Positions 23,544 to 58,916 of a stretch of DNA of 64,000 nt are shown one piece after another; the first letter of the stretch is position 1; each line of letters opens with the position of its first letter. Under the pieces are notes generated by a model that was not told the DNA's origin, made no database searches, and worked only from the letters and a program-made list of their open reading frames with translations. The stretch spans positions 14,971 to 78,970 of IMG/VR virus record IMGVR_UViG_3300020577_006243, one strand, 5' to 3'. A program made the position numbers and the translations under genes. The stretch is from a virus. Lineage: Duplodnaviria; Caudoviricetes.

Positions 23544-24290
23544 ATGATATGTTACCATATATGTATGGAAGACCTCCTGCTAAGATCAGCTATAATCATA
23601 ACACCAGAGACTATGAGAAACACTATCTTCACAAAAGAAGATAGGGATTTAATATTTCTTCATAAGAAACACATTATAAAAAACCTTTACAAAAAATCGC
23701 CATTATTCAAACATACAATAGAAAACTTTGACAAGGTTGAGCAATACTATTTTATAGTTCAAAATATTTATAGAGACTATGACAGAAAGTTTGAGATACA
23801 GATGGGCGTGTCAATCTATTTGGAAGATTACCAGTATTTGTTAAATTTAATGACTGAATTTGCTAACAAGCAGTCTGAAGACGATGGATCAAACGATGTA
23901 GAGATTGAATATAATTATGATGGCGTGTTCGGTTCTTCGGAAAGAAAAAGGATACCATTTGATGTAGGAAAATTGTCATATGTAGTAGACAAATTTTCAA
24001 TTAACATTGAATGGTTTAATATGTCAGAAGATGCAAAGTTAGATGCTTTCTATAGATTTAATAATAATGACGATAATGATAAATACAATTTTAACTTCAA
24101 TGACAGAAATACATTCAGTATAGTTCTAAAAAACTATGAGAAGGATGTGTTGACACCAGCAGATAGAAAAAAGATAAACATTCCTTTAAATAAAGGCAAT
24201 GGTGGCAGAATGTTTAAACACTATAAAAAATCATTTATAAAAAACGATCCTGCATTCTACGATAAATACAAGTTAATAATGGACGAATGA
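23544..24290 (+). CDS. Hypothetical protein with the C-terminal KY(K/R)LL-family motif
   Basis: Ends KNDPAFYDKYKLIMDE. Confidence 0.6.
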   Translation: MICYHICMEDLLLRSAIIITPETMRNTIFTKEDRDLIFLHKKHIIKNLYKKSPLFKHTIENFDKVEQYYFIVQNIYRDYDRKFEIQMGVSIYLEDYQYLLNLMTEFANKQSEDDGSNDVEIEYNYDGVFGSSERKRIPFDVGKLSYVVDKFSINIEWFNMSEDAKLDAFYRFNNNDDNDKYNFNFNDRNTFSIVLKNYEKDVLTPADRKKINIPLNKGNGGRMFKHYKKSFIKNDPAFYDKYKLIMDE

Positions 24291-24400
24291 AAGAGAAAAT
24301 AGCACTCGGGATTGTTATAATCATAATACTTATTGGGCTTGGATACTCAGCTTACGAAAATATTTACACAGCCAATAGCTTTTTTAGAACAATAAAATAA
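24287..24400 (+). CDS. Small membrane protein (37 aa), not in the ORF track
   Basis: MKEKIALGIVIIIILIGLGYSAYENIYTANSFFRTIK; ATGA overlap. Confidence 0.55.
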   Translation: MKEKIALGIVIIIILIGLGYSAYENIYTANSFFRTIK

Positions 24401-24423
24401 CAGCATTCTTAAAGTTACTGCAT

Positions 24424-25410
24424 ATGAGTAATGCAGAAGAACAATTAGAACAAGAGATTACTGGCGAAAAACCAAGAGTTGTTCCTAATCAATCTAAAGG
24501 GCTATCATTATTAGCCGAACCAGCACCTATCCCACTTATTTTACCATCTAAAGGTATTCTATACAAAAATGATCCAAAGGTTGGAGAAGTGGATAAAGAT
24601 GGACAAATTTTTATTCGTCCAATTACATTGGATGATCTTGAATTATTTGTTAACCCTGAACTAATTGAAACTGGCACAGTAATTGACGCTCTTTTCAATA
24701 GAATTATCAAGTCAAAAATAAACCCGAAATATCTGTTAGTTTCCGACAGAAATTACATCCTGCTTTACGCTAGAGCGCAGTCTTATGGGCCAGAATATTC
24801 ATTTTCTTTTAAATGTAAGGCTTGCGATAAATCAATCAAAAAAATGATTGATCTTGGCGATCTCACCGTTAGATACCTTGATGAAATTCATGGGCAGGTA
24901 AACGAGAGAGGAGATTTAATTCCAGATAGTGTTAAGAAAATTAAGGAACCTTTCGTAGCAAACCTCTCAATGTCTGGTGCAAAAGTTACATTTAATCTTG
25001 CAAGAGGTATTGACGAAAGTGAAGCCAATACTAATAAATACAGGAATAGAGTTAAAAAAGAAGTAGAAAAGAAAAAACAAGTTCTGTCAAATGTTCCAGA
25101 CGAAACAACTGTTACGATGGAAGAACAACCAGATAGTCTTATTGATGTTCTTTCAAGAAACATTATTAAAATTGAAAGTGCAGATAGTTCTGAAACATTC
25201 ACAGATGAAAAAGATATCAGACTTGTACTTTCAAAACTTAAGGCAGGTGATATTTCTGAACTTCAAGAACAAATGAGAAGTGCGGACAGTGGTGTTGATA
25301 TGAACACAGAGGTAGTTTGCCCAAGTTGCAAGCACAGGAATGAAGTTTCAGTCCCACTGAACGAAAACTTCTTCAGGAGGGAGGTTAGGCAACGAAGCAC
25401 GCAAAAATAA
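24424..25410 (+). CDS. T4 gp26-like baseplate hub / tail assembly protein
   Basis: ILPSKGILY...IRPITLDD...DRNYILLYARAQSYG, CKAC and CPSC zinc pairs, ends PLNENFF; AAAGTTA motif 6 nt upstream. Confidence 0.7.
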   Translation: MSNAEEQLEQEITGEKPRVVPNQSKGLSLLAEPAPIPLILPSKGILYKNDPKVGEVDKDGQIFIRPITLDDLELFVNPELIETGTVIDALFNRIIKSKINPKYLLVSDRNYILLYARAQSYGPEYSFSFKCKACDKSIKKMIDLGDLTVRYLDEIHGQVNERGDLIPDSVKKIKEPFVANLSMSGAKVTFNLARGIDESEANTNKYRNRVKKEVEKKKQVLSNVPDETTVTMEEQPDSLIDVLSRNIIKIESADSSETFTDEKDIRLVLSKLKAGDISELQEQMRSADSGVDMNTEVVCPSCKHRNEVSVPLNENFFRREVRQRSTQK

Positions 25411-25600
25411 TTATCGTGCTATCAATGAGGAACGAAAAAATTTAATTCGTTCTGCATTTGATCTAGCCTATGCCACTAGAGTTTTTTCATATAAGGAAGT
25501 TCGTATGTTAACTCCATTTGAACTTCGTGTTATAGCGGAAAGATATACTGAAATCATTGAAGAAAGAAACAGAGAATATGAGAAGATAAGCAAAAAATAG
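25361..25600 (+). CDS. gp51-like segment without its own start codon; probable +1 frameshift extension of 24424..25410
   Basis: Open +1 frame encodes ...AFDLAYATRVFSYKEVRMLTPFELRVIAERYTEIIEERNREYEK; no ATG/GTG/TTG before an internal Met; TTC TTC AGG AGG GAG at 25369-25383. Confidence 0.55.
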   Translation, partial: TKTSSGGRLGNEARKNNYRAINEERKNLIRSAFDLAYATRVFSYKEVRMLTPFELRVIAERYTEIIEERNREYEKISKK

Positions 25601-25609
25601 CAACTTCAG

Positions 25610-25638: not shown

Positions 25639-25646
25639 ATATAAAA

Positions 25647-27130: not shown

Positions 27131-27137
27131 GCAAAAA

Positions 27138-27643: not shown

Positions 27644-27670
27644 AAACCTATCCTTTTATTAGTATATTAC

Positions 27671-27740: not shown

Positions 27741-27748
27741 GCATTTTC

Positions 27749-30902: not shown

Positions 30903-31985
30903 TTATGATTCCAACAGATTATATATATTATTTAAAATTGTCTTATCTCTTCCGAACCCAATTCTATTTAACATAATTTGTTTGATGTTTTCATCATCTT
31001 CTTCTTTAATTTTTTCTTCAGTAATTTCTTCTGGATTTTCAATAATCCAAGAAGGAACATTTACACCATTCATATAATATAAAGAATAGCCATCGGCAAA
31101 TACCATAGCAGGTTCAGTGTTATGATGTAATTGCCCATCTTTATTTAAATTTAGAGTGGTAGGTCTATCAGACAAAAACACAATTCGTTCAAAAGGAAAC
31201 CACCAATAACATTCGCTTGCTTCTTCCATCCATAAAGACAAAATTTCTTTATCTTTTTTTGAATATTGGACTCCTATTTTATTACAAAAATCATAAAAAA
31301 CTTTCCATCCACACCATTGAGAACCACCAAAATAATTTTCAAAATTTATTTTGGCATCCACAAGATGATTGTCCCTAAGATTGTTCCCAAGATTGCTCCC
31401 AAGATTGCTCCCAAGATTGTTCCAAAGATTGTTCTCAAGATTGTCCCTAAGATTGCTCCAAAGATTGCTCCAAAGATTGTCCCTAAGATTGTCCCAAAGA
31501 TTGCTCCCAAGATTGTCCCTAAGATTGTTCCCAAGATTGCTCCCAAGATTGTCCCTAAGATTGTTCCTAAGATTGTTCCCAAGATTGCTCTCAAGATTGT
31601 CTTTAAGATTGTTCCAAAGATTGTTCCCAAGATTGCTCTCAAGATTGTCTTTAAGATTGTTCCAAAGATTGTTCTCAAGATTGTTCTCAAGATTGTCTCT
31701 AAGATTGCTCCCAAGATTGTTCCTAAGATTGCTCCTAAGATTGTTCTCAAGATTGATCCAAAGATTGCTTTTTAGCAAATGTATTATAAATAAACATTGA
31801 TAAGGGGAATCGCAAAACCATATAAATGGTTCTTGTTTTCCATTTACTTTATATAATGCTTTTATGGCGTTAGCAGATTTTATTCTGTCAATTCTTTTTG
31901 TTGAACGGCCAATTTCCAACCATTTTTCAAGAGTTGTTTTTAATTCTTTTTCTTGTTCGTATGTTAATTTTTCAATTTTTTTCAT
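30903..31985 (-). CDS. DUF6745-like protein with 33 NLxx tetrapeptide repeats
   Basis: C-terminal WWFPFERIVFLSDRP...LHHNTEPA...FADGYSLYYMNGV; paralogue of 36871..37854. Confidence 0.65.
   Translation of the reverse strand: MKKIEKLTYEQEKELKTTLEKWLEIGRSTKRIDRIKSANAIKALYKVNGKQEPFIWFCDSPYQCLFIIHLLKSNLWINLENNLRSNLRNNLGSNLRDNLENNLENNLWNNLKDNLESNLGNNLWNNLKDNLESNLGNNLRNNLRDNLGSNLGNNLRDNLGSNLWDNLRDNLWSNLWSNLRDNLENNLWNNLGSNLGSNLGNNLRDNHLVDAKINFENYFGGSQWCGWKVFYDFCNKIGVQYSKKDKEILSLWMEEASECYWWFPFERIVFLSDRPTTLNLNKDGQLHHNTEPAMVFADGYSLYYMNGVNVPSWIIENPEEITEEKIKEEDDENIKQIMLNRIGFGRDKTILNNIYNLLES
31377..31767. repeat. 12-bp tandem repeat array, 33 units with invariant AAGATT(G) core
   Basis: Unbroken 12-nt phase; encodes N-L-x-x on the - strand. 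Confidence 0.95.
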
Positions 31986-36199: not shown

Positions 36200-36874
36200 T
36201 CAAGCAAATAATAGTCTATATTTATCGTAAAACCATGTACAATTATGAACAAACCACTGATTAAGCAATACCTTTCTATTGTTGATGATTAGATGATATT
36301 CAAATCTTTTGTCTATCAATTCCATAAGTTCTTCTTGAGTAGTTGGTATTTTTTTAAGCAATTTAGTTTCTAATTCTTCACCATGAATGAAGAATTTTTC
36401 TCCACGTTCTGGTGAAACTATTGCTGGACCATCTTCTCTGTGTTTACGCCCATTTTCATCAGTCCATCTCTCTTCCAACATAACATTTCTTCTACGAATT
36501 AAACTTGACGGCCCGCTATCATTTTTTCTATATTGCTTACCATCTATGTAATAGATTTCTTTAATTGCATTTTGCAATAAAAATCCTATAAATGCTGGAC
36601 CATATTCTCTATGCAGTTCTTTATCTTTGTAATATTCAATCTTATTGATGTTTTTGGTTTCTTCATCAATATAACTGAATTTCAAAAATTTCTTGCCTCT
36701 TATTTGAGAATTAAGCCGTTTCAGAAAAAATGGGTATTCATCATGTTTGACACGAATGCTCAAATATTTTTTTTCTTCTTCTATTGCACGTTTCTTATAC
36801 TGTGATTTTGATATATAATCCTCCATAATCAGATTATAATCTGACACTACCAATAAATCAAGTTTATTTCTCAT
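36200..36874 (-). CDS. HRExGPA-repeat (MORN-variant-like) protein with the C-terminal KY(K/R)LL motif
   Basis: LHREYGPA, YRKNDSGPS, KHREDGPAI; ends WFYDKYRLLFA. Confidence 0.6.
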   Translation of the reverse strand: MRNKLDLLVVSDYNLIMEDYISKSQYKKRAIEEEKKYLSIRVKHDEYPFFLKRLNSQIRGKKFLKFSYIDEETKNINKIEYYKDKELHREYGPAFIGFLLQNAIKEIYYIDGKQYRKNDSGPSSLIRRRNVMLEERWTDENGRKHREDGPAIVSPERGEKFFIHGEELETKLLKKIPTTQEELMELIDKRFEYHLIINNRKVLLNQWFVHNCTWFYDKYRLLFA

Positions 36875-37854
36875 ACTTCTAATAAATCTAAATACCTTTC
36901 TAGAGTTTCTTTATTATTATCAAATCCAATCCTATTAAACATAATTTGTTTAATAGTTTCGTTTTTCTCTTGTTTAATTTTTTCTTTTGTTATTTGTTCC
37001 GGATATTCAACAATCCAAGAAGGGACAATAATTCCATGAATTGAGTATAATTTGTATCCGTCAGCAAATGAAATTGCTGGTTTCGTGTTATGATGTAATT
37101 TGCCATCTTTATCTAAATTTAATTCAATTGGTCTTTCACTGCAAAAAACAATATTTTCAAAAGGAAACCACCAATAACATTCTTTTGATTGTTCTATCCA
37201 TAAACTTAATAATTCTTTATCCTTATCGTTATAAGGCACTCCTATTTTATTACAAAAATCATAAAATACATCCCAATAACACCATTGAGAACCGCCAAAA
37301 TAATTTTCAAACTTTATGTCCTCAAGATTGTTCTCAAGATTGTTCCTAAGATTGTTCGCAAGATTGTTCGCAAGATTGTTCCTAAGATTGTCCTCAAGAT
37401 TGTTCCTAAGATTGTTCCTAAGATTGTCCTCAAGATTGTTCCTAAGATTGTCCTCAAGATTGTTCCTAAGATTGTTCCTAAGATTGTCCTCAAGATTGTT
37501 CGCAAGATTGTCCTCAAGATTGTTCCTAAGATTGTTCCTAAGATTGTTCCTAAGATTGTCCTCAAGATTGTCCTCAAGATTGTTCCAAAGATTGTTCCAA
37601 AGATTGCTCCCAAGATTGTCCCTAAGATTGTTCCCAAGATTGCTCTTAAATAAATGAATAACTAACATACATTGCAAAGGAGAGTCGCAAAACCAAAACA
37701 TTGGTTCTTCATTTCCATTTGCTTTATATAAATTTGTAATTGATTTGGCAACAGCAGATTTGTTCAGCCGTTCAGTTGAACGGCCAATATCAAGCCATTT
37801 ATTAATGGTATTTTGTAAATCTAATTTCTGTTCTTTCGTTAGGTTTGAAATCAT
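36871..37854 (-). CDS. DUF6745-like protein with 27 NLxx repeats
   Basis: Close paralogue of 30903..31985 on both sides of the repeat. Confidence 0.65.
   Translation of the reverse strand: MISNLTKEQKLDLQNTINKWLDIGRSTERLNKSAVAKSITNLYKANGNEEPMFWFCDSPLQCMLVIHLFKSNLGNNLRDNLGSNLWNNLWNNLEDNLEDNLRNNLRNNLRNNLEDNLANNLEDNLRNNLRNNLEDNLRNNLEDNLRNNLRNNLEDNLRNNLANNLANNLRNNLENNLEDIKFENYFGGSQWCYWDVFYDFCNKIGVPYNDKDKELLSLWIEQSKECYWWFPFENIVFCSERPIELNLDKDGKLHHNTKPAISFADGYKLYSIHGIIVPSWIVEYPEQITKEKIKQEKNETIKQIMFNRIGFDNNKETLERYLDLLEV
37324..37642. repeat. 12-bp tandem repeat array, 27 units with invariant AAGATT(G) core
   Basis: Same unit structure as 31377..31767. Confidence 0.95.
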
Positions 37855-47146: not shown

Positions 47147-47539
47147 CTATTTAAAAAGTAGTTTATATTTTTTGTAAACCCCCTTGTCTTTCTTAACAAC
47201 ATACTCATTAAAAAAATAGAAGCCTTTGCCTTTATCATTACTAACAAGTGTAGGGCTATTTATATGTCCTATTTTTTCTTCCTCTGTTAATTTATCGTAA
47301 ATAACATACTCCATATTAGTATTTGATGGTAATCCATTAGTCAATTGAAACCACGCACCATTAAATCTAACTACCATAAAACTATTAATATAAAATGCGT
47401 CTCCATCGTTTACGCCAATACCATTCAAACATTCTTCATCTATGTTCCTGAAGTTAAAGCCAGAAGATATAGCGTCTACATATGCTTTAGTGACGGCTTG
47501 TCCTCCAGACACTGGTTGCTGTATGTTACTGATCGTCAT
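47147..47539 (-). CDS. Small protein: fibre-like AVTKAYVD N-terminus plus the C-terminal KY(K/R)LL domain
   Basis: PVSGGQAVTKAYVDA; ends LTEEEKIGHINSP...VYKKYKLLFK; AAAGTTAA 12 nt upstream. Confidence 0.6.
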   Translation of the reverse strand: MTISNIQQPVSGGQAVTKAYVDAISSGFNFRNIDEECLNGIGVNDGDAFYINSFMVVRFNGAWFQLTNGLPSNTNMEYVIYDKLTEEEKIGHINSPTLVSNDKGKGFYFFNEYVVKKDKGVYKKYKLLFK

Positions 47540-49387: not shown

Positions 49388-49400
49388 AATTCTAAGATCA

Positions 49401-49429
49401 ATTATAGCATGACAAAAAGATAATATCAA
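49401..49429 (-). promoter_or_regulatory. Sigma70 promoter TTGATA-17-TATAAT with TGn
   Basis: Read directly; 13 nt upstream of ATG 49387. Confidence 0.7.
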
Positions 49430-49486
49430 ATGGAAACAGTGCTTAATTGGATTGTGGAGTTTGTAGGAATAAGTGGGGTATTATAA

Positions 49487-49831
49487 ATGTTATTAGAAGA
49501 ACTAATGAAGCAGTTAAACGAGAGAGTATCACAAAGTAACCCTCCACAATACAAAATCATAGTGTCATTTAAGGATGCTGACAAGGTGAATGGTAAGTTT
49601 TACTGCGTTTATGATCCAGCAGAATACAGCGATCATGCAGACCTTGAGGCATTTGCAAAAAGACAAGGCAAAGTCGGTGGGTTTTGTAGATTTGTAACTA
49701 TGGGTAAAAGAATAGTTGCTAACTCAAGACAATACGAAGACATTAAAGATGATGTGCTAGCGGACTTTATAACACAAATGCGTGGTAAAAAACCAGCACA
49801 CCACATCTTTATTCCAATGGTTAGAGGTTAG
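49487..49831 (+). CDS. Hypothetical protein, possibly head-associated
   Basis: Isolated + strand gene starting MLLEELMKQLNE, like the LNE leaders of the other putative head proteins. Confidence 0.5.
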   Translation: MLLEELMKQLNERVSQSNPPQYKIIVSFKDADKVNGKFYCVYDPAEYSDHADLEAFAKRQGKVGGFCRFVTMGKRIVANSRQYEDIKDDVLADFITQMRGKKPAHHIFIPMVRG

Positions 49832-50097
49832 TCTAACTCAGCAGTTTGATATATTTTCTTAATCTCTTCTGCTTTTGTTGCGACTTGATTAAATAAATAC
49901 CCCCAAACTTCTTCATATGCTTCATCAATATTAGCATCGTCTTTCAAAGAAAGGGATACTCCTGCATTAATATTGATATTTTCATAAGGTTCTGTTGTAA
50001 GTTTCATTGAAACTCCACAGTTAATTGATGTAGGAACACCATTCGTAAATTCAACTTCTGCATTTTTGTATTTTTTGATTAGTTGCTTGTTTGACAC
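49828..50097 (-). CDS. Hypothetical phage protein
   Basis: SMKLTTEPYENININAGVS...DEAYEEVW pattern. Confidence 0.55.
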   Translation of the reverse strand: MSNKQLIKKYKNAEVEFTNGVPTSINCGVSMKLTTEPYENININAGVSLSLKDDANIDEAYEEVWGYLFNQVATKAEEIKKIYQTAELD

Positions 50098-50362
50098 TTT
50101 TTCTCTCCATTTCTTTTCTATATTTTTTATAATCTTCTGGACGCCAGTTTATAGATTTAAAATCTTCTTCTGTACATGTTGAAAGAAGTTTTCTATCCTC
50201 TTCTGAGAGGTTTTTAATTACTGAACCCGGCATATATCTTTCTGGAATTTTATTTCCAGAAGAAGCGTACATGATTCCATTACCATTAGACCAAAGACCA
50301 GACCCTTTAAATTGGGCATCGTTGATTAAACGATTTAATAACTCTTTTTTCCTATCGTCCAT
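50051..50362 (-). CDS. Hypothetical early protein
   Basis: TTGATA-17-TATCAT promoter (50369-50397) ends 6 nt before the ATG. Confidence 0.6.
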   Translation of the reverse strand: MDDRKKELLNRLINDAQFKGSGLWSNGNGIMYASSGNKIPERYMPGSVIKNLSEEDRKLLSTCTEEDFKSINWRPEDYKKYRKEMERKSVKQATNQKIQKCRS

Positions 50363-50398
50363 ATATTTATGATAACATAAATACGAACAAATATCAAA

Positions 50399-51829
50399 TC
50401 AAGATTTTGTTAATTCGTCTCTATATTTTAAAAGAATTTGGATTTCCTGTTCAGTCTTAATCCTTCTTCTTTCTTTAGCACTTTTGACCAATTCAATTAA
50501 CCCATTATGGGAAACAGGACGGCTATAGTAATAGCCCTGAACACTATCGCAATTCAATACCTTCAATAGTTCAAGTTGATCTTTAGTTTCCACACCTTCC
50601 GCTGTACATTCAAGATTAAAGTGATAAGCAAGGGCAAGAATAGCATTTACTATTTTTTTGTCATCCTCGTTGTTCATTAAATCTCTGATAAACGATCTGT
50701 CAATTTTCAGTTTATGAACTTTAAATTTTCTCAAATAATTAAGTGAAGAAGCACCAATGCCGAAATCATCAATAGATACTCGGATACCATGTTTTGCCAA
50801 TTCTTGTATATTATGTGCGGCGTATTCCATATCTTCCATTACAGTTCTTTCTGTAATTTCTATTTCAAGAAAACGTGGGTTAGTATTTGTCTCATTTAAT
50901 ATCGAGAGAACATCCTTCACCATTTCTTTGGAGTGCATATATCTCTGTGAGAAATTAACAGACACCCAAAGTCTGGAGCCTAATTCTGCGTTTATTCTGT
51001 TTATACCTAAACAAGCCTGTCTCAACACATACCTATCAACTTCTACTATAAGATTACTTTCTTCACATATTGATATAAATGTTTCTGTATTTATCTCGCC
51101 TAAAGCAGTATCCGTCCATCTAACAAGTGCCTCAACACCAACAATTCTTCCTGTCTTAATATTTATTTGAGGTTGATATGCTATACTAAATCCTCTTTGT
51201 TGATGATGTAAATCCTTTCTAATATTGTTATCAATTCTCAATTTTTCAACAACTTTTTCATGTACTTCTGGAGTATAGAATTGATAACAGGAGCCGCCTT
51301 TATCTTTTGCTAAATACATAGCAAAATCGGCTTGTTTAAGAGCGTCAGTTAAATTTAGCGCATCGGTTGGGTAAATACAAATGCCAACAGAGGACGACAC
51401 TGCGATAACAGTACCGTTTATTTCAATGTCTACAGATACAGCTTCTATTATTTTCTCTGCAAGTTGCGCGGCACTTTTTGGGTTCGCTACATCTTCTTGT
51501 ATCATCACAAACTCATCGCCACCCATTCTGTATACTGTATCAGACTTTCTGAGTATTTGCGTAAGTCTATCTGCTGTGATTTTTAAAACCTGATCGCCAA
51601 CTAAATGACCCATACTATCGTTTATTCTTTTGAAATTGTCAAGATCAAAAAACAATAGAGCAAAATTCGTCTTCTGTCTGTCTGTTTTTATTATTGTTTT
51701 TTCAACGTCATTAAAGAATGACAATCTATTTGGCAGTCTTGTTAAACTGTCAAAATGTGCTAAATCAAATAGTCTTTCGTCTTTATACTTGAAAAGACTT
51801 AATATTTTTTTTATCATATTTATACTCAT
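50399..51829 (-). CDS. GGDEF-EAL diguanylate cyclase/phosphodiesterase
   Basis: DSLTRLPNR, DLDNFKRINDSMGHLVGD, RKSD I-site, RMGGDEF; YQPQ, VEAL, VNFS, EITE, DDFG, KIDRSF, EGVET, QGYYYSRP. Confidence 0.93.
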   Translation of the reverse strand: MSINMIKKILSLFKYKDERLFDLAHFDSLTRLPNRLSFFNDVEKTIIKTDRQKTNFALLFFDLDNFKRINDSMGHLVGDQVLKITADRLTQILRKSDTVYRMGGDEFVMIQEDVANPKSAAQLAEKIIEAVSVDIEINGTVIAVSSSVGICIYPTDALNLTDALKQADFAMYLAKDKGGSCYQFYTPEVHEKVVEKLRIDNNIRKDLHHQQRGFSIAYQPQINIKTGRIVGVEALVRWTDTALGEINTETFISICEESNLIVEVDRYVLRQACLGINRINAELGSRLWVSVNFSQRYMHSKEMVKDVLSILNETNTNPRFLEIEITERTVMEDMEYAAHNIQELAKHGIRVSIDDFGIGASSLNYLRKFKVHKLKIDRSFIRDLMNNEDDKKIVNAILALAYHFNLECTAEGVETKDQLELLKVLNCDSVQGYYYSRPVSHNGLIELVKSAKERRRIKTEQEIQILLKYRDELTKS

Positions 51830-51839
51830 TATCTTTTTA

Positions 51840-52088
51840 TTACTCTATTAAAAGGCGATATTTTTCGTATTGTTCTTGCTTGTATATTCTTGCACCTTGA
51901 AGAAAATTATAAGTGCCAACCAATAATGCGCTCTCTCCAAGTCTCATAATTTGAATTTTCTCTGGATTTTTTATAAAATACAAGAAATCTTCGTCTTCTA
52001 TTTCCCATCCTATGAATTCAAATTCTGTTATAGATAGAGCATAATACCTACTGTTTGGAAATTTTTCTACAATAGTAGAATACAACAT
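51840..52088 (-). CDS. KY(K/R)LL-family small protein
   Basis: Ends QYEKYRLLIE; paralogous to the C-terminal half of 52545..52928. Confidence 0.6.
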   Translation of the reverse strand: MLYSTIVEKFPNSRYYALSITEFEFIGWEIEDEDFLYFIKNPEKIQIMRLGESALLVGTYNFLQGARIYKQEQYEKYRLLIE

Positions 52089-52354
52089 TAATTAAACCTG
52101 AAATCTTGATTAAAATATACTTCAACAATTTGGGAATGATGAGCCTTAAAACATACTTTTTCTTCAACCGTATTAATCATAAAATCACATTTATATGGTA
52201 AATTATGCCTGTGTTTAAACTCAAAGTCATGCATCGCCCTCTCTGTAGCGTACATTATACCAATTGGATCATAACGATCAACTCCACTTAAATAATACAA
52301 ATATAGATCACGGAGTATATTAGCCTGTTTCAGTAGTTCTTCATATGTTACCAT
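52088..52354 (-). CDS. Hypothetical protein ending NQDFRFN
   Basis: TAATG coupling; shares its terminus with 52357..52542. Confidence 0.55.
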   Translation of the reverse strand: MVTYEELLKQANILRDLYLYYLSGVDRYDPIGIMYATERAMHDFEFKHRHNLPYKCDFMINTVEEKVCFKAHHSQIVEVYFNQDFRFN

Positions 52355-52356
52355 TT

Positions 52357-52542
52357 TTAATTAAACCTAAAATCATTCTGATATTGCTTTCTCATACCAG
52401 CAATTCTTTCTTTTATTCTCCTGTACTCTGGTTCAGGAATTCTATTTATGTCAATTATACCTCTTCTGACTTTATCAGTTAATTCTTCTATTGAGAAGAG
52501 ATTTGGATTTATCATCAATGTTTTGAAATAGATTACACCCAT
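52357..52542 (-). CDS. Hypothetical protein ending QNDFRFN
   Basis: Tight 2-nt spacing in the operon. Confidence 0.5.
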   Translation of the reverse strand: MGVIYFKTLMINPNLFSIEELTDKVRRGIIDINRIPEPEYRRIKERIAGMRKQYQNDFRFN

Positions 52543-52544
52543 TT

Positions 52545-52928
52545 TTAACCTTCTATTAAAAGACGATATTTCTCGTATAGTTCTGGATGATATTTCTTTG
52601 CCGCACTTTTGAAAGTTACATTTTTGTAAGAGCCACTTGAAGAAGATGACATTATCACAATCTTATTTGGGTTCTCAATATACTCAAGAAAATCAACATC
52701 GCTTATATTCCATCTTGAAAACTCAAATATAGTCATTGTTAGTATGTCAGTTTCCTCCAAGTCTTTAGCTACTCCGTTTAACGCAATGCTAATCTCAGTA
52801 GTAGCATCCCCAATACTTATCGTGTTTGAGTAAGTGTTTGTCAATATAAGACCACTGCCTACTGTCAAATTACCGCCTACACTAAGATTACGTGCGGCAC
52901 CTAAATTTTGATTAACGATATATGACAT
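52545..52928 (-). CDS. KY(K/R)LL-family protein with a fibre-like N-terminus
   Basis: NLSVGGNLTVGSGLILTN; ends YHPELYEKYRLLIEG. Confidence 0.6.
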   Translation of the reverse strand: MSYIVNQNLGAARNLSVGGNLTVGSGLILTNTYSNTISIGDATTEISIALNGVAKDLEETDILTMTIFEFSRWNISDVDFLEYIENPNKIVIMSSSSSGSYKNVTFKSAAKKYHPELYEKYRLLIEG

Positions 52929-54047
52929 TTATGCCCAATCTTCAAAGTCGTCCTTGAAATTAACAGAACTTGCAGTTGCTTTTGCTTCTCTTTTAGTCTT
53001 GCCTTTTTCAATGAGTTTCTTTGCAGTTGTATTCAACTTGTTAATTCTTGTTGGAAGGTTCATTCCAGAGAAAAGGATGTTGACCTTATAGTCTCTTGTG
53101 TCTGTGTTGACAACAGACTTCAACATTCTCTTTCCTTTGAATTTTCTTGAGATTAACTCAAATAGTTCGTTGATAGGAACAACGTCATCTGAACCGTGTT
53201 TTCTTGGTCTTTCAACTACAACAAGCATACCTTCACAAGAGGCATAATCGTATCCTTTTGCCATAGAAAGATTTGTTTCTTTCATTCCTTCTTTGAAACC
53301 TTCTTCAATATCAGCAAGTGAAATTTTGAATGATTTAATATCATTGAAACCAACATCATTACCTGCTCTCATTAGTCTAAATATACGAACGAATTCTCGC
53401 TCGTCAAGAGTGTTGAAAGTTTCAATGTCTGTACTTTCTGCTTCTGTAAGATTTAAGAACAGCATGATTTTAGAAATTCTTTCGTTGATTGCTTGCCAGT
53501 GATTAACTGTATGTTCTTCTTCTTCAAAAAGAAGTTGATTGTCAACGATAAAGAAAGGAGATACTTTAGTTCCTTTCAATACTTTTACTAAGTTATGAAG
53601 CCCATTAATACTATTTGGAATTGTTGGAGAACCTTCTTGATTAAGAGGAAGTGTGTAAATAACACCGAATTTTACTCTCAATTCATCAAGTATTCCACAT
53701 ACTACAGGCGCAAAACCTGTCCCCGTTCCACCACCACCACCGATTGTAACAATAAGAAATCCATCATATCCTTCAACTGTTGCTTCAAGGAAGTCTCTAA
53801 TAGTGTGTTTATTTTCCTGTGCGAGTGTTTCAGCAAATCCGGGTGATCTGCCAGTTCCAGAACCATCTATACAGAGTTTAATCTGTTCATCTTTGTTGCG
53901 TTTATTTCCTTTTGAGAAATAATCACCTTCTAATAAATCCATTTCATCTTTATGAGTGTTAAGATAATACATTTTTTCAGCGAAACTTTCAAAAGCCCTG
54001 CCTACTCCTGCCCCACCTTTACCAATACAAATTAATCTTAAACGCAT
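52929..54047 (-). CDS. Tubulin/FtsZ-family GTPase (PhuZ/TubZ-like)
   Basis: IGKGGAG, GSGTGRSP, signature GGGGGTGTG, T7-loop-like NTLDERE; AGGAG RBS. Confidence 0.88.
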   Translation of the reverse strand: MRLRLICIGKGGAGVGRAFESFAEKMYYLNTHKDEMDLLEGDYFSKGNKRNKDEQIKLCIDGSGTGRSPGFAETLAQENKHTIRDFLEATVEGYDGFLIVTIGGGGGTGTGFAPVVCGILDELRVKFGVIYTLPLNQEGSPTIPNSINGLHNLVKVLKGTKVSPFFIVDNQLLFEEEEHTVNHWQAINERISKIMLFLNLTEAESTDIETFNTLDEREFVRIFRLMRAGNDVGFNDIKSFKISLADIEEGFKEGMKETNLSMAKGYDYASCEGMLVVVERPRKHGSDDVVPINELFELISRKFKGKRMLKSVVNTDTRDYKVNILFSGMNLPTRINKLNTTAKKLIEKGKTKREAKATASSVNFKDDFEDWA

Positions 54048-54958
54048 ACATTCTCCTTTTTTATTCTAAAGTATATATTACTTTCTGTACAACCTATAAT
54101 ATCACTTATTTGTTTGACAGTCAACCCATCTTTTAGCATTTTATCTAAATCATGTTTTTCCCAATTGTATTTATGAGTAGGATTGTTTTTTTTAATATCT
54201 AAGTCTTTTAAACAACTTGATAAGAACTTGCGTCCTTTTTTAAAGTGTTTTTCCATTTCTTGCATACTAACATTTGCATCATTCATTTCAATCAATTCTT
54301 TTTTATGTCTTAAAATCCAAATTTTTTTTAATCTTTTAATACTTGTTGGTTTTATGTTTAATTTTTTTTGTCTTTTTACTACAGTGGTATAACATACTCC
54401 TAATTTTTTCGCTATAGCAAGAGTTGACATTTCTTTTGATAATGTTTTTAAATCTATATTACTCCAATCAAATTGGACATTTACTTTAGTAGCGTATATT
54501 GACGCACATTTTAACGAACAAAAATTGAAATTTATAAATTTATCTCTACCACAAATTGAACAATTATCAATTAACCTTTCGCCATTTTCATCAATTAAAA
54601 ATTCATTTTTAAATACTTCGTATGCGCTATCAAATTGCTTCATACTTTCAGTGACAGAACGAACCCCGTAATGAATTTCAGCGTGACAATTTGAACAAAC
54701 TAAAATACACTTTTTCAATTCTTTAACAATCATTTTCCATCTTTTTTGTCCTTGTTTTGTAGATAGAATTACATTTTCACCTATATTAAAATTAAAATCT
54801 TTTTCTTTAGGGTTTATATGATGAAAATGAAGTGAACAGTTATGTTTGTTATAACCACAAATTTTACATTTGCCACCCATTGCGGTTACAGCAATATTTT
54901 TATACGCTCGTTTTATTTTTCTTTTATAACTTATATAAAGTTCTTTATTCTTATACAT
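54038..54958 (-). mobile_element. HNH endonuclease with Zn finger and C-terminal HTH-like repeats
   Basis: GGKCKICGY...LHFHHINP...KCILVCSNCHAEIH; LAIAKKLGV and VKQISDIIGC helices. Confidence 0.8.
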
Positions 54959-55041
54959 ACAATTATCTTATAACTAAAAAGAAAAGGAGGGCAATAAAAA
55001 GGAAAAAGATTGTAATTTCATTTTCGTTTTTCTCCTAATTA

Positions 55042-55070
55042 ATTGTATTCCTAATGATTAAATATGTCAA
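55042..55070 (-). promoter_or_regulatory. Sigma70 promoter TTGACA-17-TACAAT
   Basis: The -35 box contains the TGA stop of 55067..55543. Confidence 0.7.
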
Positions 55071-55543
55071 GTCTTCTCCATCAACAATTTATATTTTTGA
55101 AATAATTCTGGACGGAATTGCTCAAGAAATTCCTCAAGCGTTATATAAGTTTTTACACCGTCATCACCATTGTAAATCATTTGTGAATGTGATTGATAAA
55201 CTTCCACCATTGCTTTACAAGGATTGAGTAATCCAATAATTTCATCTTCGCTTAAAAAATATGCCTTTTCACTACTTAGAATAATTTTGTGTTCAGGTTT
55301 TATTGAAATGTTTATATTATTAAAATTTACTGCCGTTCCAGAGGAGGCAATATAAGGAAATTGAACTGTCCAAGTTGACTGTGGGGTTGACGGCACCGTT
55401 ATAGTTGTTCCGACAGGATAAAATGTCGTTCCTGTAGTCGTTGTCGTAGTGTACGATCCATTCGTATTGGAGGTATCTGTATACTCACCGCTCAAAAGGT
55501 CATTTCCACCTGTCCCAAACAATTCGTTTAATTTTTTCCACAT
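55067..55543 (-). CDS. KY(K/R)LL-family protein with a Thr-rich N-terminus
   Basis: Ends QFRPELFQKYKLLMEKT. Confidence 0.65.
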   Translation of the reverse strand: MWKKLNELFGTGGNDLLSGEYTDTSNTNGSYTTTTTTGTTFYPVGTTITVPSTPQSTWTVQFPYIASSGTAVNFNNINISIKPEHKIILSSEKAYFLSEDEIIGLLNPCKAMVEVYQSHSQMIYNGDDGVKTYITLEEFLEQFRPELFQKYKLLMEKT

Positions 55544-55551
55544 TATATCGT

Positions 55552-55580
55552 ATTGTACGATACATTTCTCTAAATGTCAA
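55552..55580 (-). promoter_or_regulatory. Sigma70 promoter TTGACA-17-TACAAT
   Basis: The -35 box contains the TGA stop of 55577..55984; ATG lies 8 nt after the -10 box. Confidence 0.7.
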
Positions 55581-55984
55581 TTCTCTTCAATTAAAAGTTT
55601 GTATTTCTCATATAGTTCTGGACGGAATTTTTCTATGAATTTTGTTAACCTCACAAAATTTCTATGGTAGTTTTCTATCACTTCTACCCAAATTACTTTA
55701 TCTACTACAGCTATGAACTCTTCTTCTGTAATAAAGAATGCTTCCTTAGAAGAAAAGACCATTTCTATTTCAATATTTTTATTGAATAAATGGCTTGGAT
55801 AAATTCTCCCATTTTTGTTTGGTAGTGCTGGATTTGGAACTGTAAATTTTGGTATAGGCTGTTGTGGTTGGCCACCAGTTCCATGACGTGGGTTGTATCT
55901 TACAATTGTTATTTCATCAGGAATGTTTGGAATTACGCCAAAAAATCCTAATATAACTCTCAAAATGCCTTTTATAAATTCCAT
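55577..55984 (-). CDS. KY(K/R)LL-family protein with a Pro-rich N-terminus
   Basis: Ends KFRPELYEKYKLLIEEN. Confidence 0.65.
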   Translation of the reverse strand: MEFIKGILRVILGFFGVIPNIPDEITIVRYNPRHGTGGQPQQPIPKFTVPNPALPNKNGRIYPSHLFNKNIEIEMVFSSKEAFFITEEEFIAVVDKVIWVEVIENYHRNFVRLTKFIEKFRPELYEKYKLLIEEN

Positions 55985-55985
55985 T

Positions 55986-56363
55986 TTATTTATCCATTAA
56001 TAGTTTGTATTTATGACAGAATTCTTTGTATTCTTTAGTGAAATTCTCTTTGAAGAATTTCTTTGGCTCTAAAAATGAACCAGCAAGAACTGATTTTTTA
56101 TCCTGACTTATATTCTTAACATTGTCACAGAAATACAATTTAACATTTTCACTCTTGTCAATAAGTATCTCTATCATCTCTTCTTCTATCTCGTTGAATT
56201 CATCAAATGTTCCAACCTGTGGGTTGTCCATATCATTATTGTAGTCCATTTTAATAAAGAAAAATTTCTTTGATTGTTTATTCATAGGATCTATTCTTAC
56301 GGTTATGTGATGCACTTCATTATTATAATCAAATCTCTGCGTAGACTGCATTACAACTTTCAC
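55986..56363 (-). CDS. KY(K/R)LL-family protein
   Basis: Ends FCHKYKLLMDK. Confidence 0.6.
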   Translation of the reverse strand: MKVVMQSTQRFDYNNEVHHITVRIDPMNKQSKKFFFIKMDYNNDMDNPQVGTFDEFNEIEEEMIEILIDKSENVKLYFCDNVKNISQDKKSVLAGSFLEPKKFFKENFTKEYKEFCHKYKLLMDK

Positions 56364-57397
56364 TTTTTACCTTTAACAAACTCCTTCAATTTTTTCTTGT
56401 CAAGTTTAGTTTCAACATTTTCAATATAGACATCAATCATGTCTTCTGCGTTAGTCATGCTACTTGCATCAAAGTCACCCATCTTGCTTTCATCTAATTC
56501 CATGTCAGTAGTGATTTTTGTCGTTGAAAAATCTACCTGTTGATTTGTCTTTTCTAATTGCATTTTCATTTCAATTAGTTTTGCATTTGTAATCTTCTTA
56601 GTGTTCTCTTCGTTCACATTGATCTTGATAAATCCATTTTTGATCTTCTTAATCTTATCCATTTGTGTGATATCAAGTTCGTGAAAGCAAGGTGGAACAT
56701 AATCGTCGTATACTTTGAATTTATGTTCAAGAGTTTTTAAGTCTAATTCAACAAAGCCATAGACATTCCCTGCATCTCTCTTTCCTTGATGATGAGTAGA
56801 ACCGATATATGTTATATGCTTATGCTCTCTTCTTCTATGATAATGTCCAACGAATACTTTGTCAAACATTCTTAGATTGTGCGGATTGATTGAAGCAGTC
56901 TTCATTTCAAATCCATTATTTACATAGAAACCATTACAATCAAAATGTCCGAACAGAACATTCTTCTTCCCCTTCTTAACAGGAAGACTTTCGCCTGAAA
57001 TGTGATCGTTACCTGCGTAATTGCAAAATATGAAATTGTTGCCATCTATTTCTTTAACTGTAAATGGATCAGGGACAACTTCAAGGTATTCATCAAATAG
57101 ATTGATAAGACAATATTCACTGCTTCCTTTATATACTAAATCGTGATTACCAACAACGAATGTAGTTTTGAAATTCTTAAATCTTTCAAATGTTGGTTTT
57201 ATTTTTGGCAATACATGGGATGAAAGAATTTCTTTTTGATGAAATGTGTCACCCAAGCAAAACAAATATTCAATTCTATTTTTTTCAGCATAATCTATTA
57301 TGTTATTCAAACATGCTAAAGCAGTATCAACAAATATCTCACTTGAGCCTTTTGTAATATCAATGTGGACATCGGTAAATAGTAAACATTTTGACAT
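56360..57397 (-). CDS. sbcD: SbcD/gp47/Mre11-type metallophosphoesterase nuclease
   Basis: FTDVH, LGDTFH, VGNHD, FGHF, GHYH...YIGS. Confidence 0.88.
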   Translation of the reverse strand: MSKCLLFTDVHIDITKGSSEIFVDTALACLNNIIDYAEKNRIEYLFCLGDTFHQKEILSSHVLPKIKPTFERFKNFKTTFVVGNHDLVYKGSSEYCLINLFDEYLEVVPDPFTVKEIDGNNFIFCNYAGNDHISGESLPVKKGKKNVLFGHFDCNGFYVNNGFEMKTASINPHNLRMFDKVFVGHYHRRREHKHITYIGSTHHQGKRDAGNVYGFVELDLKTLEHKFKVYDDYVPPCFHELDITQMDKIKKIKNGFIKINVNEENTKKITNAKLIEMKMQLEKTNQQVDFSTTKITTDMELDESKMGDFDASSMTNAEDMIDVYIENVETKLDKKKLKEFVKGKK

Positions 57398-58086
57398 TAT
57401 TTGGCACTCCTATTATAATTGTACTGCCTCATCCTTTCTGCCCTTTTTAATTTTTCTTCTTCTGACATAACCCATTTTTTTCTATTTTTAGTTCCGATTC
57501 TGATGTTTTCTAAAGCCTCTCCAGTTCTTTTTTTACCTGTATTTGAAATTCTTATTTTTTCAACAATTTTACTATCTCTTATACTGCCAACTTTTGGTAC
57601 AAATCTTGTTTTTTTAAATTTGTTAAGTCGTCTTTGCTTCTCTTTATTATCCATTCCATCCCACATTTTTTTAGTCGCTATTGATTTATGAACCTTTTCT
57701 TCTTCGGTTGCTTTTCTGCCTTTGACAGCAAGGCCGATTTTCTTTTTAGTGTCTTCATTTAAACTGCCGTTCGCGCCACCTTCTCTAAGATTATACCCAT
57801 TCTCTATAGTATTGTATTTTTCAATATAATGAATTTCCATATTGTTCAATGCTTCTTGATTTTGTCCATAACAAAATTCAATTACTCCCCATAAAAAATT
57901 TTTAACACCATGTTTTTTCATCGCATTGAACAGTTTAACTGATTTCTTCTTTGGTTGCCTATTCAACATTTCAAGATTAAAATGTTCATGTATTCTGTAT
58001 TCAACTTTTCTAACAGTCTGCCCAATATACATTTTACCATCAATTAGGCATTTGACGCAATATATAGTTCCAAATATTTTACTCAT
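57397..58086 (-). mobile_element. GIY-YIG homing endonuclease with NUMOD3-like repeats
   Basis: GTIYCVKCLIDGKMYIGQT...RIHEH...EIHYI...GYNLREGG; sits directly upstream of the nuclease gene. Confidence 0.85.
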
Positions 58087-58092
58087 TAATTC

Positions 58093-58494
58093 TCACTCTT
58101 TTATATAAATTGGTTTTAATCTTGGCTCTATTGCTATTGTATCATAATTCCCATCACCAAGCAATCTATATTTGTCGTATAGTTCAGGAAGATACCTTTT
58201 AACATAGTGGTGCAGAAAGTAATATTCTCCGCTCGTTTGCCTTCTAACAAATTTATAATCGCCTTGCAATGAACCAATGTATAACTCATCTGTTATCTCT
58301 TCTGGTTGTATCTCTGCCTTTAACACATCTCTAATTGTATGTTTTATGTTTTGTGAAGCAATAAATCCATAAAGATGGCTAATATACAAACAATCTTTAT
58401 CAATATGAAATTTATAATCAAGGCTATGATTGTTAATTTCCATCTTGATTATAAATGCTGAACTATATATTTCATCTGGAGTTACTGTTTTCAC
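58093..58494 (-). CDS. KY(K/R)LL-family protein
   Basis: YFLHHYVKRYLPELYDKYRLL near the C-terminus. Confidence 0.6.
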   Translation of the reverse strand: MKTVTPDEIYSSAFIIKMEINNHSLDYKFHIDKDCLYISHLYGFIASQNIKHTIRDVLKAEIQPEEITDELYIGSLQGDYKFVRRQTSGEYYFLHHYVKRYLPELYDKYRLLGDGNYDTIAIEPRLKPIYIKE

Positions 58495-58916
58495 TTAAAA
58501 TTTTCCTTGTCTAATAATTTGTATTTCTCATACATTTCTGGCATATGTAATTTCACATAATGATGCAGAAGATAGTACGTCATCTTGTCTTCTTTAATGA
58601 TGCCAGAGCTAACAATTTTTGTATCGTCGTTGAAACTACCAATAACCATCTCCTCTGTTATATCCTTTGGTTCAACTCTTAAATCTGTTTTAATCAAATC
58701 AAATTCCATAGAAATTGCTTTTCCATTTTCATACATATAATCTATTTCAAGAGTTTTCTTATTAACTGAAACTTGATAATCCCCAAGTTGATAATAATGA
58801 TACGGTAATATTTGATCTACCACTCCCTTTGGAGCGACAATGTGGTTTACCTGTCCTTTATTTATTTCTTGATAAATTGTAGCGGATATGTTTGTAATTA
58901 ATTCACTTAAATTCAT
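58491..58916 (-). CDS. KY(K/R)LL-family protein
   Basis: YLLHHYVKLHMPEMYEKYKLL. Confidence 0.6.
   Translation of the reverse strand: MNLSELITNISATIYQEINKGQVNHIVAPKGVVDQILPYHYYQLGDYQVSVNKKTLEIDYMYENGKAISMEFDLIKTDLRVEPKDITEEMVIGSFNDDTKIVSSGIIKEDKMTYYLLHHYVKLHMPEMYEKYKLLDKENFK

What the first reader, a model, noticed from the sequence alone, without database searches (positions are those of the whole stretch)
23544..58916. At least ten proteins with different N-termini share a C-terminal 'PELYEKYKLL' domain: a candidate modular adaptor/targeting system
Seen: ten ORFs carry essentially the same motif at or near the C-terminus: 23544 (PAFYDKYKLIMDE*), 36200 (WFYDKYRLLFA*), 47147 (VYKKYKLLFK*), 51840 (QYEKYRLLIE*), 52545 (PELYEKYRLLIEG*), 55067 (PELFQKYKLLMEKT*), 55577 (PELYEKYKLLIEEN*), 55986 (FCHKYKLLMDK*), 58093 (PELYDKYRLLGD, then about 17 more aa) and 58491 (PEMYEKYKLLDK...). 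About 35-55 aa upstream most also have an acidic helix (LTEEEKIGHINSP, IEDEDFLYFIKNP, ISDVDFLEYIENP, LSEDEIIGLLNP, ITEEEFIAVVDK, IEEEMIEILIDK, TTQEELMELIDK, ITDELYIGSLQG, ITEEMVIGSFND). Codons differ synonymously (TAT/TAC, AAA/AAG, CTT/TTA/CTA/TTG), so selection acts on the peptide and not on a DNA site. The N-termini are unrelated apart from three pairs: HRExGPA repeats, fibre-like fragments, Thr-rich, Pro-rich, or almost nothing. The genes are scattered over 35 kb on both strands. Inference: a constant C-terminal docking module plus variable N-terminal cargo, comparable in logic to poxvirus ANK/PRANC adaptors. It could recruit one shared partner (host protease/chaperone, RNA polymerase, membrane machinery, the phage tubulin) or act as a sorting/packaging tag. 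I do not recognise it as a named family.
Basis: partly seen in the sequence, partly recalled or inferred. Interest (0 to 1): 0.88.

Follow-up and report, generated by a model that had tools for sequence, protein, structure and literature searches.

The report
Expanded small-protein family in a megaphage
Ten genes in this huge uncultivated phage encode members of an undescribed family of small proteins that share a roughly 60-residue folded domain ending in FYEKY(K/R)LL; related phages carry 13 to 23 copies, many of them little more than the domain, so it looks more like a duplicating, diverging gene family than a tag fused to different cargoes.

Summary
KY[KR]L[LIVM] occurs exactly ten times in the six-frame translation of the whole 78,970-bp contig. 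All ten lie in the ten named ORFs, 2-21 residues from the stop; shuffles give a mean of 1.8.

The motif is not a free tail. With a 31-sequence alignment AlphaFold2 gives a confident model (pLDDT 88) of a compact beta-alpha-alpha-beta-beta-alpha-alpha-alpha domain. FYEKY(K/R)LL forms its last two helices and the acidic 'TEEE' stretch is helix 2.

No Pfam, PHROG, NCBIfam, PDB, BFVD or ESM Atlas match was found. A profile search of 1.84 billion proteins gave only 27 hits, and no prokaryotic genome had one.

The family is restricted to a few low-GC megaphages. The window phage is a 356-kb contig elsewhere. A syntenic relative has 12 consecutive tandem copies of 61-109 aa, and a third phage has about 23 copies.

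N-terminal extensions are gained and lost between orthologues. The 'constant dock plus variable cargo' reading is therefore only partly supported.

Most likely this is a clade-specific, birth-and-death family of small, mostly acidic, largely early proteins, with a stable mini-scaffold and variable surfaces, acting in host takeover or counter-defence. That function is inferred, not shown. Interest is moderate.

The parts
23544..24290 (+). Family member, 248 aa. It has the longest N-terminal extension (~180 aa) and matches only the C-terminal two-thirds of the domain profile. It ends ...PAFYDKYKLIMDE.
   Evidence: Its orthologues P0042 (90% identity) and P0043 (51%) keep the same C-terminus.
36200..36874 (-). 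Family member, 224 aa. The N-terminal ~160 aa carries HRExGPA-type repeats, followed by the C-terminal domain (...WFYDKYRLLFA). It lies directly downstream of a DUF6745 gene.
   Evidence: The orthologue P0006 (208 aa) is.
47147..47539 (-). Family member, 130 aa, directly downstream of the Rad50-like gene. A TAAAGTTAA motif (the scan's candidate late promoter) lies 13 nt before the ATG.
   Evidence: In the L009 strain a 1-nt deletion in codon 13 leaves a 93-aa ORF that keeps the domain.
51840..52088 (-). Family member, 82 aa, essentially the domain alone.
52545..52928 (-). Family member, 127 aa, immediately downstream of the tubulin gene. It is a paralogue of 51840 (50% identity over the domain).
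55067..55543 (-). Family member, 158 aa, with a Thr-rich N-terminus. Its stop codon lies inside a TTGACA-17-TACAAT promoter-like site for the next gene.
55577..55984 (-). Family member, 135 aa. It has an N-terminal hydrophobic segment (Kyte-Doolittle 19-residue mean 1.69) and a Pro-rich linker. Its stop codon lies inside a TTGACA-17-TACAAT promoter-like site that would drive 55067.
55986..56363 (-). Family member, 125 aa (121 aa if the later ATG is used). It is divergent and ends ...EFCHKYKLLMDK.
   Evidence: (P0010)
58093..58494 (-). Family member, 133 aa. It is the only window member with a C-terminal tail (21 aa) after the motif, and orthologue P0007 keeps that tail. It is a tandem paralogue of 58491.
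58491..58916 (-). Family member, 141 aa, tandem paralogue of 58093 (35% identity over 98 aa).
55552..55580 (-). Sigma-70-like promoter (TTGACA, 17 nt, TACAAT) overlapping the stop codon of 55577.
   Evidence: This is a consensus match only.
55042..55070 (-). Sigma-70-like promoter (TTGACA, 17 nt, TACAAT) overlapping the stop codon of 55067.
   Evidence: This is a consensus match only.

Best explanation
The ten genes belong to a previously undescribed protein family restricted to one small clade of phages. The family is built on a compact alpha/beta domain of about 58-65 residues.

What the motifs are:
- FYEKY(K/R)LL forms the last two helices of the domain.
- The acidic 'TEEE' stretch is its second helix.
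- Both are therefore parts of one fold, not a detachable tag.

How the family evolves: it grows and shrinks by local, often tandem, duplication and deep divergence. This happens within the replication/recombination gene module of a small group of low-GC, T4-like megaphages. N-terminal extensions are secondary and evolutionarily labile additions. They include a hydrophobic helix with a Pro-rich linker, a Thr-rich tract, HRExGPA repeats and short beta-rich pieces.

Inferred mechanism: each paralogue is a small, usually acidic, mostly early-expressed binding protein. It presents a different surface (the beta2-beta3 hairpin and the N-terminus) on a constant scaffold, so that the family as a whole handles many host or competitor targets, in host takeover or counter-defence.

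The fold, distribution and mode of evolution are shown here. The timing of expression is suggested by promoter-like sites. The function is inference.
For: Family membership and specificity:
- Ten hits, all C-terminal, against 1.8 expected by chance.
- The HMM finds only these ten in the contig.

Fold:
- The AF2 model of the 68-aa standalone member P0011 with 31 sequences has pLDDT 88 and pTM 0.74. Its elements are b8-11, a12-16, a20-26, b30-36, b40-45, a46-53, a55-60 and a62-66.
- Conserved columns include hydrophobic and aromatic positions (L24, F46, Y49, F57, Y58, Y61, L63, L64) and positions of the kind that cap helices (T19, P55-E56).

Distribution:
- 27 hits among 1.84 billion representative proteins; the longest is 208 aa and many are 67-86 aa standalone proteins.
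- None in 185,579 prokaryotic species genomes.

Expansion in related phages:
- 12 consecutive overlapping genes of 61-109 aa, plus one more, in L013.
- About 23 copies in the 87-kb record G001.
- Three tandem copies in L002.

Real genes under purifying selection: between the window and L002 orthologues pS is 0.60-0.89 and pN is 0.19-0.34, in both the domain and the N-terminus.

Labile N-termini: an 86-aa orthologue against the 135-aa window protein, and a strain with a frameshifted N-terminus that keeps the domain ORF.

Context:
- L013 is syntenic with the window (PolIII alpha, Mre11-like, tubulin, Rad50-like), but the array sits in a different slot.
- In G001 the copies lie among glycosyltransferases, a RecA/UvsX-like gene and a helicase.
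- Near-consensus sigma-70-like promoters overlap two gene ends.

Composition: the family is mostly acidic, with median net charge -4 and pI 5.1.

Tree: branches are deep (median terminal length 1.45) and only local duplicate pairs are well supported.

Precedent: phage G has a lineage-specific expansion of about 35 copies of a small Zn-ribbon (PMC7824862).
Against: - No function-bearing homologue, ligand or partner was found, so 'host takeover or counter-defence' is an argument from analogy.
- Three near-invariant charged positions (E20, K60, K/R62) sit beside invariant Y61. That pattern is more typical of a shared binding or active site than of a pure scaffold, and it favours a common partner or ligand.
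- One member (47147) sits behind the candidate late-promoter motif, and another (23544) lies next to baseplate genes. Not all members look early.
- Promoter calls are consensus matches in AT-rich DNA: 102 were found against 88 expected.
- The tree is too poorly resolved to date the duplications.
Confidence: 0.5

Rival explanations
1. Constant docking or adaptor module. The conserved face (E20-E22, Y58, K60, Y61, K/R62) binds one shared partner. Candidates are a phage machine such as the tubulin or replisome, or a host protease or chaperone. The variable hairpin and N-terminus bring different targets or locations to that partner.
For: - Near-invariant charged and aromatic residues in a family with 12% mean column identity.
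- The domain is always at or near the C-terminus.
- Some members carry distinct N-terminal parts: a putative membrane helix in 55577 and HRExGPA repeats in 36200.
- A family member lies within three genes downstream of the tubulin gene in both syntenic phages.
Against: - Many members are bare domains of 61-86 aa with no cargo.
- N-termini are lost between orthologues.
- No N-terminal module occurs independently, and there are no fusions to known domains.
- No F-box or PRANC similarity was found.
- No partner was identified.
Confidence: 0.22
2. A family of small nucleic-acid-binding or regulatory proteins. These would be dimeric, Phd/YefM-like or winged-helix-like transcription factors or DNA-architectural proteins, comparable to the Zn-ribbon expansion of phage G.
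For: - The order of secondary-structure elements (b-a-a-b-b-a) is that of the Phd/YefM N-domain.
- 9 of the top 50 VIA-align hits are Phd/YefM-type antitoxins, at Z 2.1-2.8.
- One ESM Atlas fold-search row is a Phd family cluster, at TM 0.47.
- The genes lie in a replication/recombination module.
- Precedent in PMC7824862.
Against: - The Z scores are far below the tool's own noise level, which is typically Z 7-8 for the best hit.
- The PF02604 model finds nothing in the contig.
- The family is mostly acidic (median net charge -4), and the putative 'recognition' helix is EEE-rich.
- There is no adjacent toxin gene.
Confidence: 0.1
3. Virion-associated proteins. The domain would anchor small fibre-like or decoration pieces to the particle, or mark proteins for packaging.
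For: - 47147 and 52545 (with relatives P0008 and P0015) have short Gly/Asn/Ser/Thr-rich, beta-looking N-termini.
- 47147 follows the candidate late-promoter motif.
- 23544 lies next to baseplate genes.
- There is one weak PHROG 'tail protein' hit for 58491, at E 8e-4.
Against: - Most members sit in same-strand operons with replication and recombination genes, and two are followed by sigma-70-like promoters.
- The N-terminal pieces have no significant similarity to the contig's own fibre genes.
- Tandem arrays of 12-23 bare domains are not what structural genes look like.
Confidence: 0.08
4. Chance motif, or non-coding or mis-called ORFs.
For: None found.
Against: - Ten hits against 1.8 expected, all in frame and all C-terminal.
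- pN is much lower than pS between orthologues.
- Homologues occur in independent assemblies.
- The fold prediction is confident.
Confidence: 0.01

Closest known systems
Lineage-specific expansions of small domains in jumbo phages and megaphages, for example the ~35-copy Zn-ribbon family of Bacillus phage G (PMC7824862)
   Same: Many paralogous copies of one small domain in a very large phage genome; restricted to one lineage; function unknown, and proposed to be regulatory or conflict-related.
   Different: Different fold: there are no Zn ligands, and this is a b-a-a-b-b-a-a-a domain. The family is acidic rather than basic, has a characteristic FYEKY(K/R)LL C-terminus, and is found only in uncultivated phages.
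Small early ORF clusters in the hyperplastic regions of T4-like phages (from general knowledge of T4 genomics)
   Same: Short, tightly packed, same-strand genes between replication and recombination genes, with their own sigma-70-like promoters. Content varies between related phages.
   Different: T4 hyperplastic-region ORFs are mostly unrelated to one another. Here one family fills the slots with 11 to 23 or more paralogues.
Poxvirus ANK/PRANC (F-box-like) host-range family
   Same: A multigene family of a large virus with a conserved small C-terminal module.
   Different: PRANC is an F-box-like helical motif attached to large ankyrin arrays and binds Skp1. Here there was no hit to any Pfam family, which includes the F-box and PRANC models. 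Most members also have no N-terminal domain, and the host is a bacterium.
Phd/YefM antitoxin N-terminal domain (PF02604)
   Same: Similar size and the same order of strands and helices. It gives repeated weak structural hits.
   Different: Z is only 2.1-2.8, there is no sequence-profile match, there is no partner toxin gene, and the surface is acidic.

Membership tests
Any curated protein family (Pfam-A 2025, PHROGs v4, NCBIfam 20) | Profile match above or near the curated threshold | tested here: not met
   None of the ten window proteins or the 31 aligned members has a meaningful hit. The best are scattered single hits at E 0.002-0.1 to unrelated families.
Poxvirus PRANC / F-box adaptor | Sequence match to an F-box or PRANC profile at the C-terminus | tested here: not met
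   hmmscan against the whole of Pfam-A at E<=1 lists no F-box or PRANC family for any member.
Poxvirus PRANC / F-box adaptor | A large N-terminal target-binding repeat domain in every member | tested here: not met
   Many members are 61-86 aa bare domains.
Phd/YefM antitoxin (PF02604) | Match to the PF02604 profile | tested here: not met
   A six-frame search of the contig with PF02604 gave no match at E<=0.01, while 7 of 14 control genomes matched. Pfam scans of the members also gave none.
Phd/YefM antitoxin (PF02604) | Shared fold | tested here: inconclusive
   VIA-align gives Z 2.1-2.8, rmsd 2.7-3.4 A and 41-47 aligned residues for nine Phd/YefM-type chains. The Atlas gives TM 0.47. Both are below noise levels.
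Phd/YefM antitoxin (PF02604) | Adjacent cognate toxin gene | tested here: not met
   The neighbours are paralogues, tubulin, an HTH protein, a GIY-YIG gene, a Mre11-like gene and a GGDEF-EAL gene. No toxin family was detected.
Lineage-specific multigene family of a large phage | Several paralogues per genome, partly in tandem, with homologues confined to a narrow clade | tested here: met
   10 copies, plus one more outside the window, in the window phage; 13 in 16 kb of L013; about 23 in G001. There are only 27 hits among 1.84 billion proteins and none in prokaryotic genomes.
Short linear C-terminal tag (degron or sorting signal) | The motif lies in a disordered tail, independent of any fold | tested here: not met
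   In the AF2 model residues 55-66 are helical, and the 10-residue blocks covering residues 51-68 have mean pLDDT 95 and 87. Five or six members carry 13-28 aa after the motif. This is a prediction, not an experiment.

The most novel reading that the evidence does not exclude
The domain is a true adaptor module of a bacterial virus. Its invariant E20/Y58/K60/Y61/K62 face docks every paralogue onto one phage or host machine, for example the phage tubulin, the replisome or a host protease. The variable hairpin or N-terminus selects different targets. That would be an F-box-like 'one dock, many specificities' system in a megaphage.
Probability: 0.15. Interest if true: 0.8.

Novelty: new member of a known kind. 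Interest (0 to 1): 0.45.

Why it matters
The work defines an unannotated protein domain with a confident predicted fold and no detectable relative in Pfam, PHROGs, PDB or BFVD. The domain has expanded to 11-23 or more copies in a small clade of ~350-kb uncultivated phages.

Expanded families of this kind in large viruses are usually the genes through which the virus adapts to hosts and defences. The family is therefore a defined target set for finding new host-takeover or anti-defence activities.

It also gives annotators a profile (alignment A4) that names about 5% of the genes in these phage regions.

It does not by itself reveal a new mechanism.

Tried and rejected
- Homodimer co-fold of the domain (P0011 with alignment A4, two copies): score 0.02, no verdict. 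It is not used as evidence either way.
- Single-sequence AF2 of 55577: pLDDT 38, uninformative.
- Fold searches gave no usable match. Foldseek against PDB had its best hit at E 1.6. VIA-align wide had its best hit at Z 4.5, to an ankyrin protein. BFVD had its best hit at E 0.22. The Atlas gave TM 0.53 or less.
- ESM Atlas feature search gave HAD-like rows at 0.90 with few shared features, judged to be chance.
- PDB sequence-profile search gave nothing below E 0.08.
- tblastn of 55577 against 50,697 phage genomes gave no match.
- A search for longer, fused forms found none; this is weak evidence.
- The N-terminus of 23544 has only orthologues that keep the domain.
- Strain-level dN/dS was uninformative, because L009-L012 are about 100% identical to the window.
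- The genome search on the ENA loci is not possible, so the 356-kb genome could not be counted in full.
- A literature search for the motif strings found nothing relevant.
- A T4 prohead-protease-like 'L-x-E' site at the C-terminus was considered. It was rejected as coincidental: cleavage there would remove only 0-4 residues, and T4 targeting signals are N-terminal (from general knowledge).
- Clamp-binding, SsrA-like and SSB-tail-like motifs were considered and rejected, because the sequences do not resemble them (from general knowledge).


Full report
**Observation**

- A six-frame scan for KY[KR]L[LIVM] finds exactly ten matches in the window and in the whole 78,970-bp contig of which the window is bases 14,971-78,970.
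- All ten are in the named ORFs, 2-21 residues from the stop.
- Shuffled contigs give a mean of 1.8 and at most 5 matches.
- A profile of the last ~70 residues recovers the ten (E 1e-27 to 5e-12) and nothing else; the next ORF has E 0.14.
- Codons of the motif differ synonymously, and the underlying DNA is only 52-90% identical between copies. The constraint is therefore on the protein.

**What the shared part is**

Aligning the C-termini (A1) and searching 1.84 billion representative proteins gave only 27 hits with E<1e-3. None is longer than 208 aa. Many are standalone proteins of 67-86 aa that end ...FYEKY(K/R)LL(I/F/L)E.

With a 31-sequence alignment (A2), AlphaFold2 models the 68-aa member P0011 at pLDDT 88 and pTM 0.74. 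The elements are strand 8-11, helices 12-16 and 20-26, a hairpin 30-36/40-45, and helices 46-53, 55-60 and 62-66.

- 'PELYEKYKLL' forms the last two helices.
- Conserved positions are mostly hydrophobic or aromatic (L24, F46, Y49, F57, Y58, Y61, L63, L64), or are residues of the kind that cap helices (T19, P55-E56).
- Three are near-invariant charges: E20, K60 and K/R62.

The motif is thus part of a small folded domain, not a linear tag. I could not inspect coordinates, so whether the charged residues form internal salt bridges or an exposed site remains open.

**Is it a known domain?**

No.

- Pfam-A, PHROGs and NCBIfam give no meaningful hit for any member.
- A PDB sequence-profile search gives nothing below E 0.08.
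- Foldseek against PDB and BFVD gives nothing below E 0.2.
- The exhaustive VIA-align search peaks at Z 4.5, well under the tool's stated background.
- The ESM Atlas gives TM 0.53 or less.

The only recurring lead is the Phd/YefM antitoxin N-domain. It has the same order of elements, and nine chains score Z 2.1-2.8. However, the PF02604 model finds nothing in the contig, and the family is acidic, with median net charge -4. I treat this as a resemblance of topology only.

**Distribution and evolution**

- The window phage also exists as a 356,254-bp contig (L009). There a further member lies just beyond the window's end, at L009:352-690.
- A relative on a 115-kb contig (L013) shares tubulin at 57% identity, PolIII alpha at 56%, a Mre11-like protein at 47% and a Rad50-like protein at 38%. 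It has twelve consecutive family genes of 61-109 aa with overlapping stops and starts directly after PolIII alpha, and one more near the tubulin gene.
- A third, more distant IMG/VR record (G001; 87 kb, GC 30.6%, about 36% complete) has 22-24 matches of 71-204 aa in several clusters. They lie among glycosyltransferases, a RecA/UvsX-like gene and a helicase.
- Short contigs add a few more members.
- No prokaryotic genome of 185,579 species encodes the domain, and no INPHARED phage matched the one member searched.
- Orthologues in L002 show saturated synonymous change (pS 0.60-0.89) against pN 0.19-0.34, both in the domain and upstream of it. These are real genes under purifying selection.
- A tree of 55 domains has very long branches, and only local duplicate pairs are well supported. 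This fits old, continuing birth-and-death evolution.

**The N-termini**

In the window they range from 11 to about 180 residues.

- Two pairs (55067/55577 and 58093/58491) are tandem duplicates that are alike for 95-110 residues. The third (51840/52545) is alike only over the domain.
- 55577 starts with a hydrophobic segment that could be a membrane anchor, followed by a Pro-rich linker. 55067 is Thr-rich.
- 36200 carries HRExGPA repeats. They weakly resemble a motif in the two neighbouring DUF6745 proteins.
- The orthologue of 55577 in L002 is 86 aa and lacks the whole N-terminal part. One strain carries a 1-nt deletion that removes the N-terminus of 47147 but leaves a 93-aa ORF with the domain.
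- The N-terminal 185 residues of 23544 have only orthologues that keep the domain.
- No fusions to larger known domains were found.

The 'variable cargo' therefore consists of labile, lineage-specific additions and not of shuffled modules.

**Context and timing**

The contig is from a large T4-like myovirus. It encodes a T4 baseplate protein, a gp15-like protein, long beta-helix fibre proteins and an M23 peptidase.

Eight of the ten members sit on the minus strand among PolIII alpha, a GIY-YIG endonuclease, a Mre11-like gene, an HTH protein, a tubulin, a GGDEF-EAL enzyme and a Rad50-like gene. A ninth, 36200, is also on the minus strand but lies elsewhere, directly downstream of a DUF6745 gene.

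- Two near-consensus TTGACA-17-TACAAT sites overlap the stop codons of 55577 and 55067. This suggests transcription by the host polymerase, that is, early expression.
- 47147 instead follows the TAAAGTTAA motif that the scan proposed as a late promoter.
- 23544 lies on the plus strand before baseplate genes.

Timing is therefore probably mixed, and it has not been measured.

**Interpretation**

Shown:
- a new, narrowly distributed, expanded family built on a small predicted fold;
- evolution by local duplication in the non-structural gene module;
- dispensable N-terminal additions.

Inferred: the members are small binding proteins that present different surfaces on a constant scaffold and serve host takeover or counter-defence. 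This rests on analogy with other expanded families of large viruses and with the variable small early genes of T4-like phages. Phage G's Zn-ribbon expansion of about 35 copies is a published precedent for the phenomenon (PMC7824862).

The invariant charged residues keep it alive. The many bare-domain members and the absence of any identified partner weaken it. A homodimer co-fold gave no verdict and is not counted either way.

**Verdict**

The feature is real and undescribed. It is an instance of a known kind, a lineage-specific multigene family in a giant phage, and its function is unresolved. It is of moderate interest. It would become highly interesting only if a common partner or a defined anti-defence activity were demonstrated.

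Noticed in passing
window 30903-31985 (-) and 36871-37854 (-): Two paralogous proteins combine a long run of five-residue 'NLxxN' repeats (NLRNNLEDNL...), which look like pentapeptide repeats, with a C-terminal DUF6745 domain (E 1e-20). Their 'GKLHHNTKPA..F.DG' stretch weakly resembles the HRExGPA repeats of the family member at 36200.
   Followed up: partly
window 47558-57397 (-); L013:9937-15351: The phage tubulin gene lies between a Mre11-like gene (345 aa; its L013 homologue carries a Metallophos hit) and a Rad50-like gene. The arrangement is conserved in the related 115-kb phage contig. In T4 the equivalent genes 47 and 46 are adjacent.
   Followed up: partly
window 55042-55070 and 55552-55580 (-): The stop codons of two tandem family genes lie inside the -35 hexamer of near-consensus TTGACA-17-TACAAT promoter-like sites for the next gene. 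The duplication unit may therefore include the promoter.
   Followed up: partly
L009:18556-18837, compared with window 47147-47539: In the 356-kb assembly a 1-nt deletion in codon 13 frameshifts the N-terminus of the 47147 orthologue. This leaves a 93-aa ORF that still encodes the domain. It could be a real variant or an assembly error.
   Followed up: partly
window 50399-51829 (-): A phage-encoded GGDEF-EAL protein (E 2e-45 and 2e-65) lies directly downstream of the 82-aa family member. A c-di-GMP link to the family is pure speculation.
   Followed up: no
window 40676-42523 (+): A 615-aa protein has weak hits to atypical kinase folds (ABC1, APH, DUF4135; E 2e-4 to 8e-4). It lies next to tail genes.
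   Followed up: no
L013:1439-5270 and L009:953-4221: In the relative, PolIII alpha appears split by a DUF723/CapR-type endonuclease gene. In the window phage a DUF723 endonuclease gene sits immediately upstream of, and overlaps, PolIII alpha.
   Followed up: no
window 58093-58158 (-): The 58093 member has a 21-aa tail after the motif (GDGNYDTIAIEPRLKPIYIKE). Orthologue P0007 conserves it, so this sub-family has gained a C-terminal extension.
   Followed up: no
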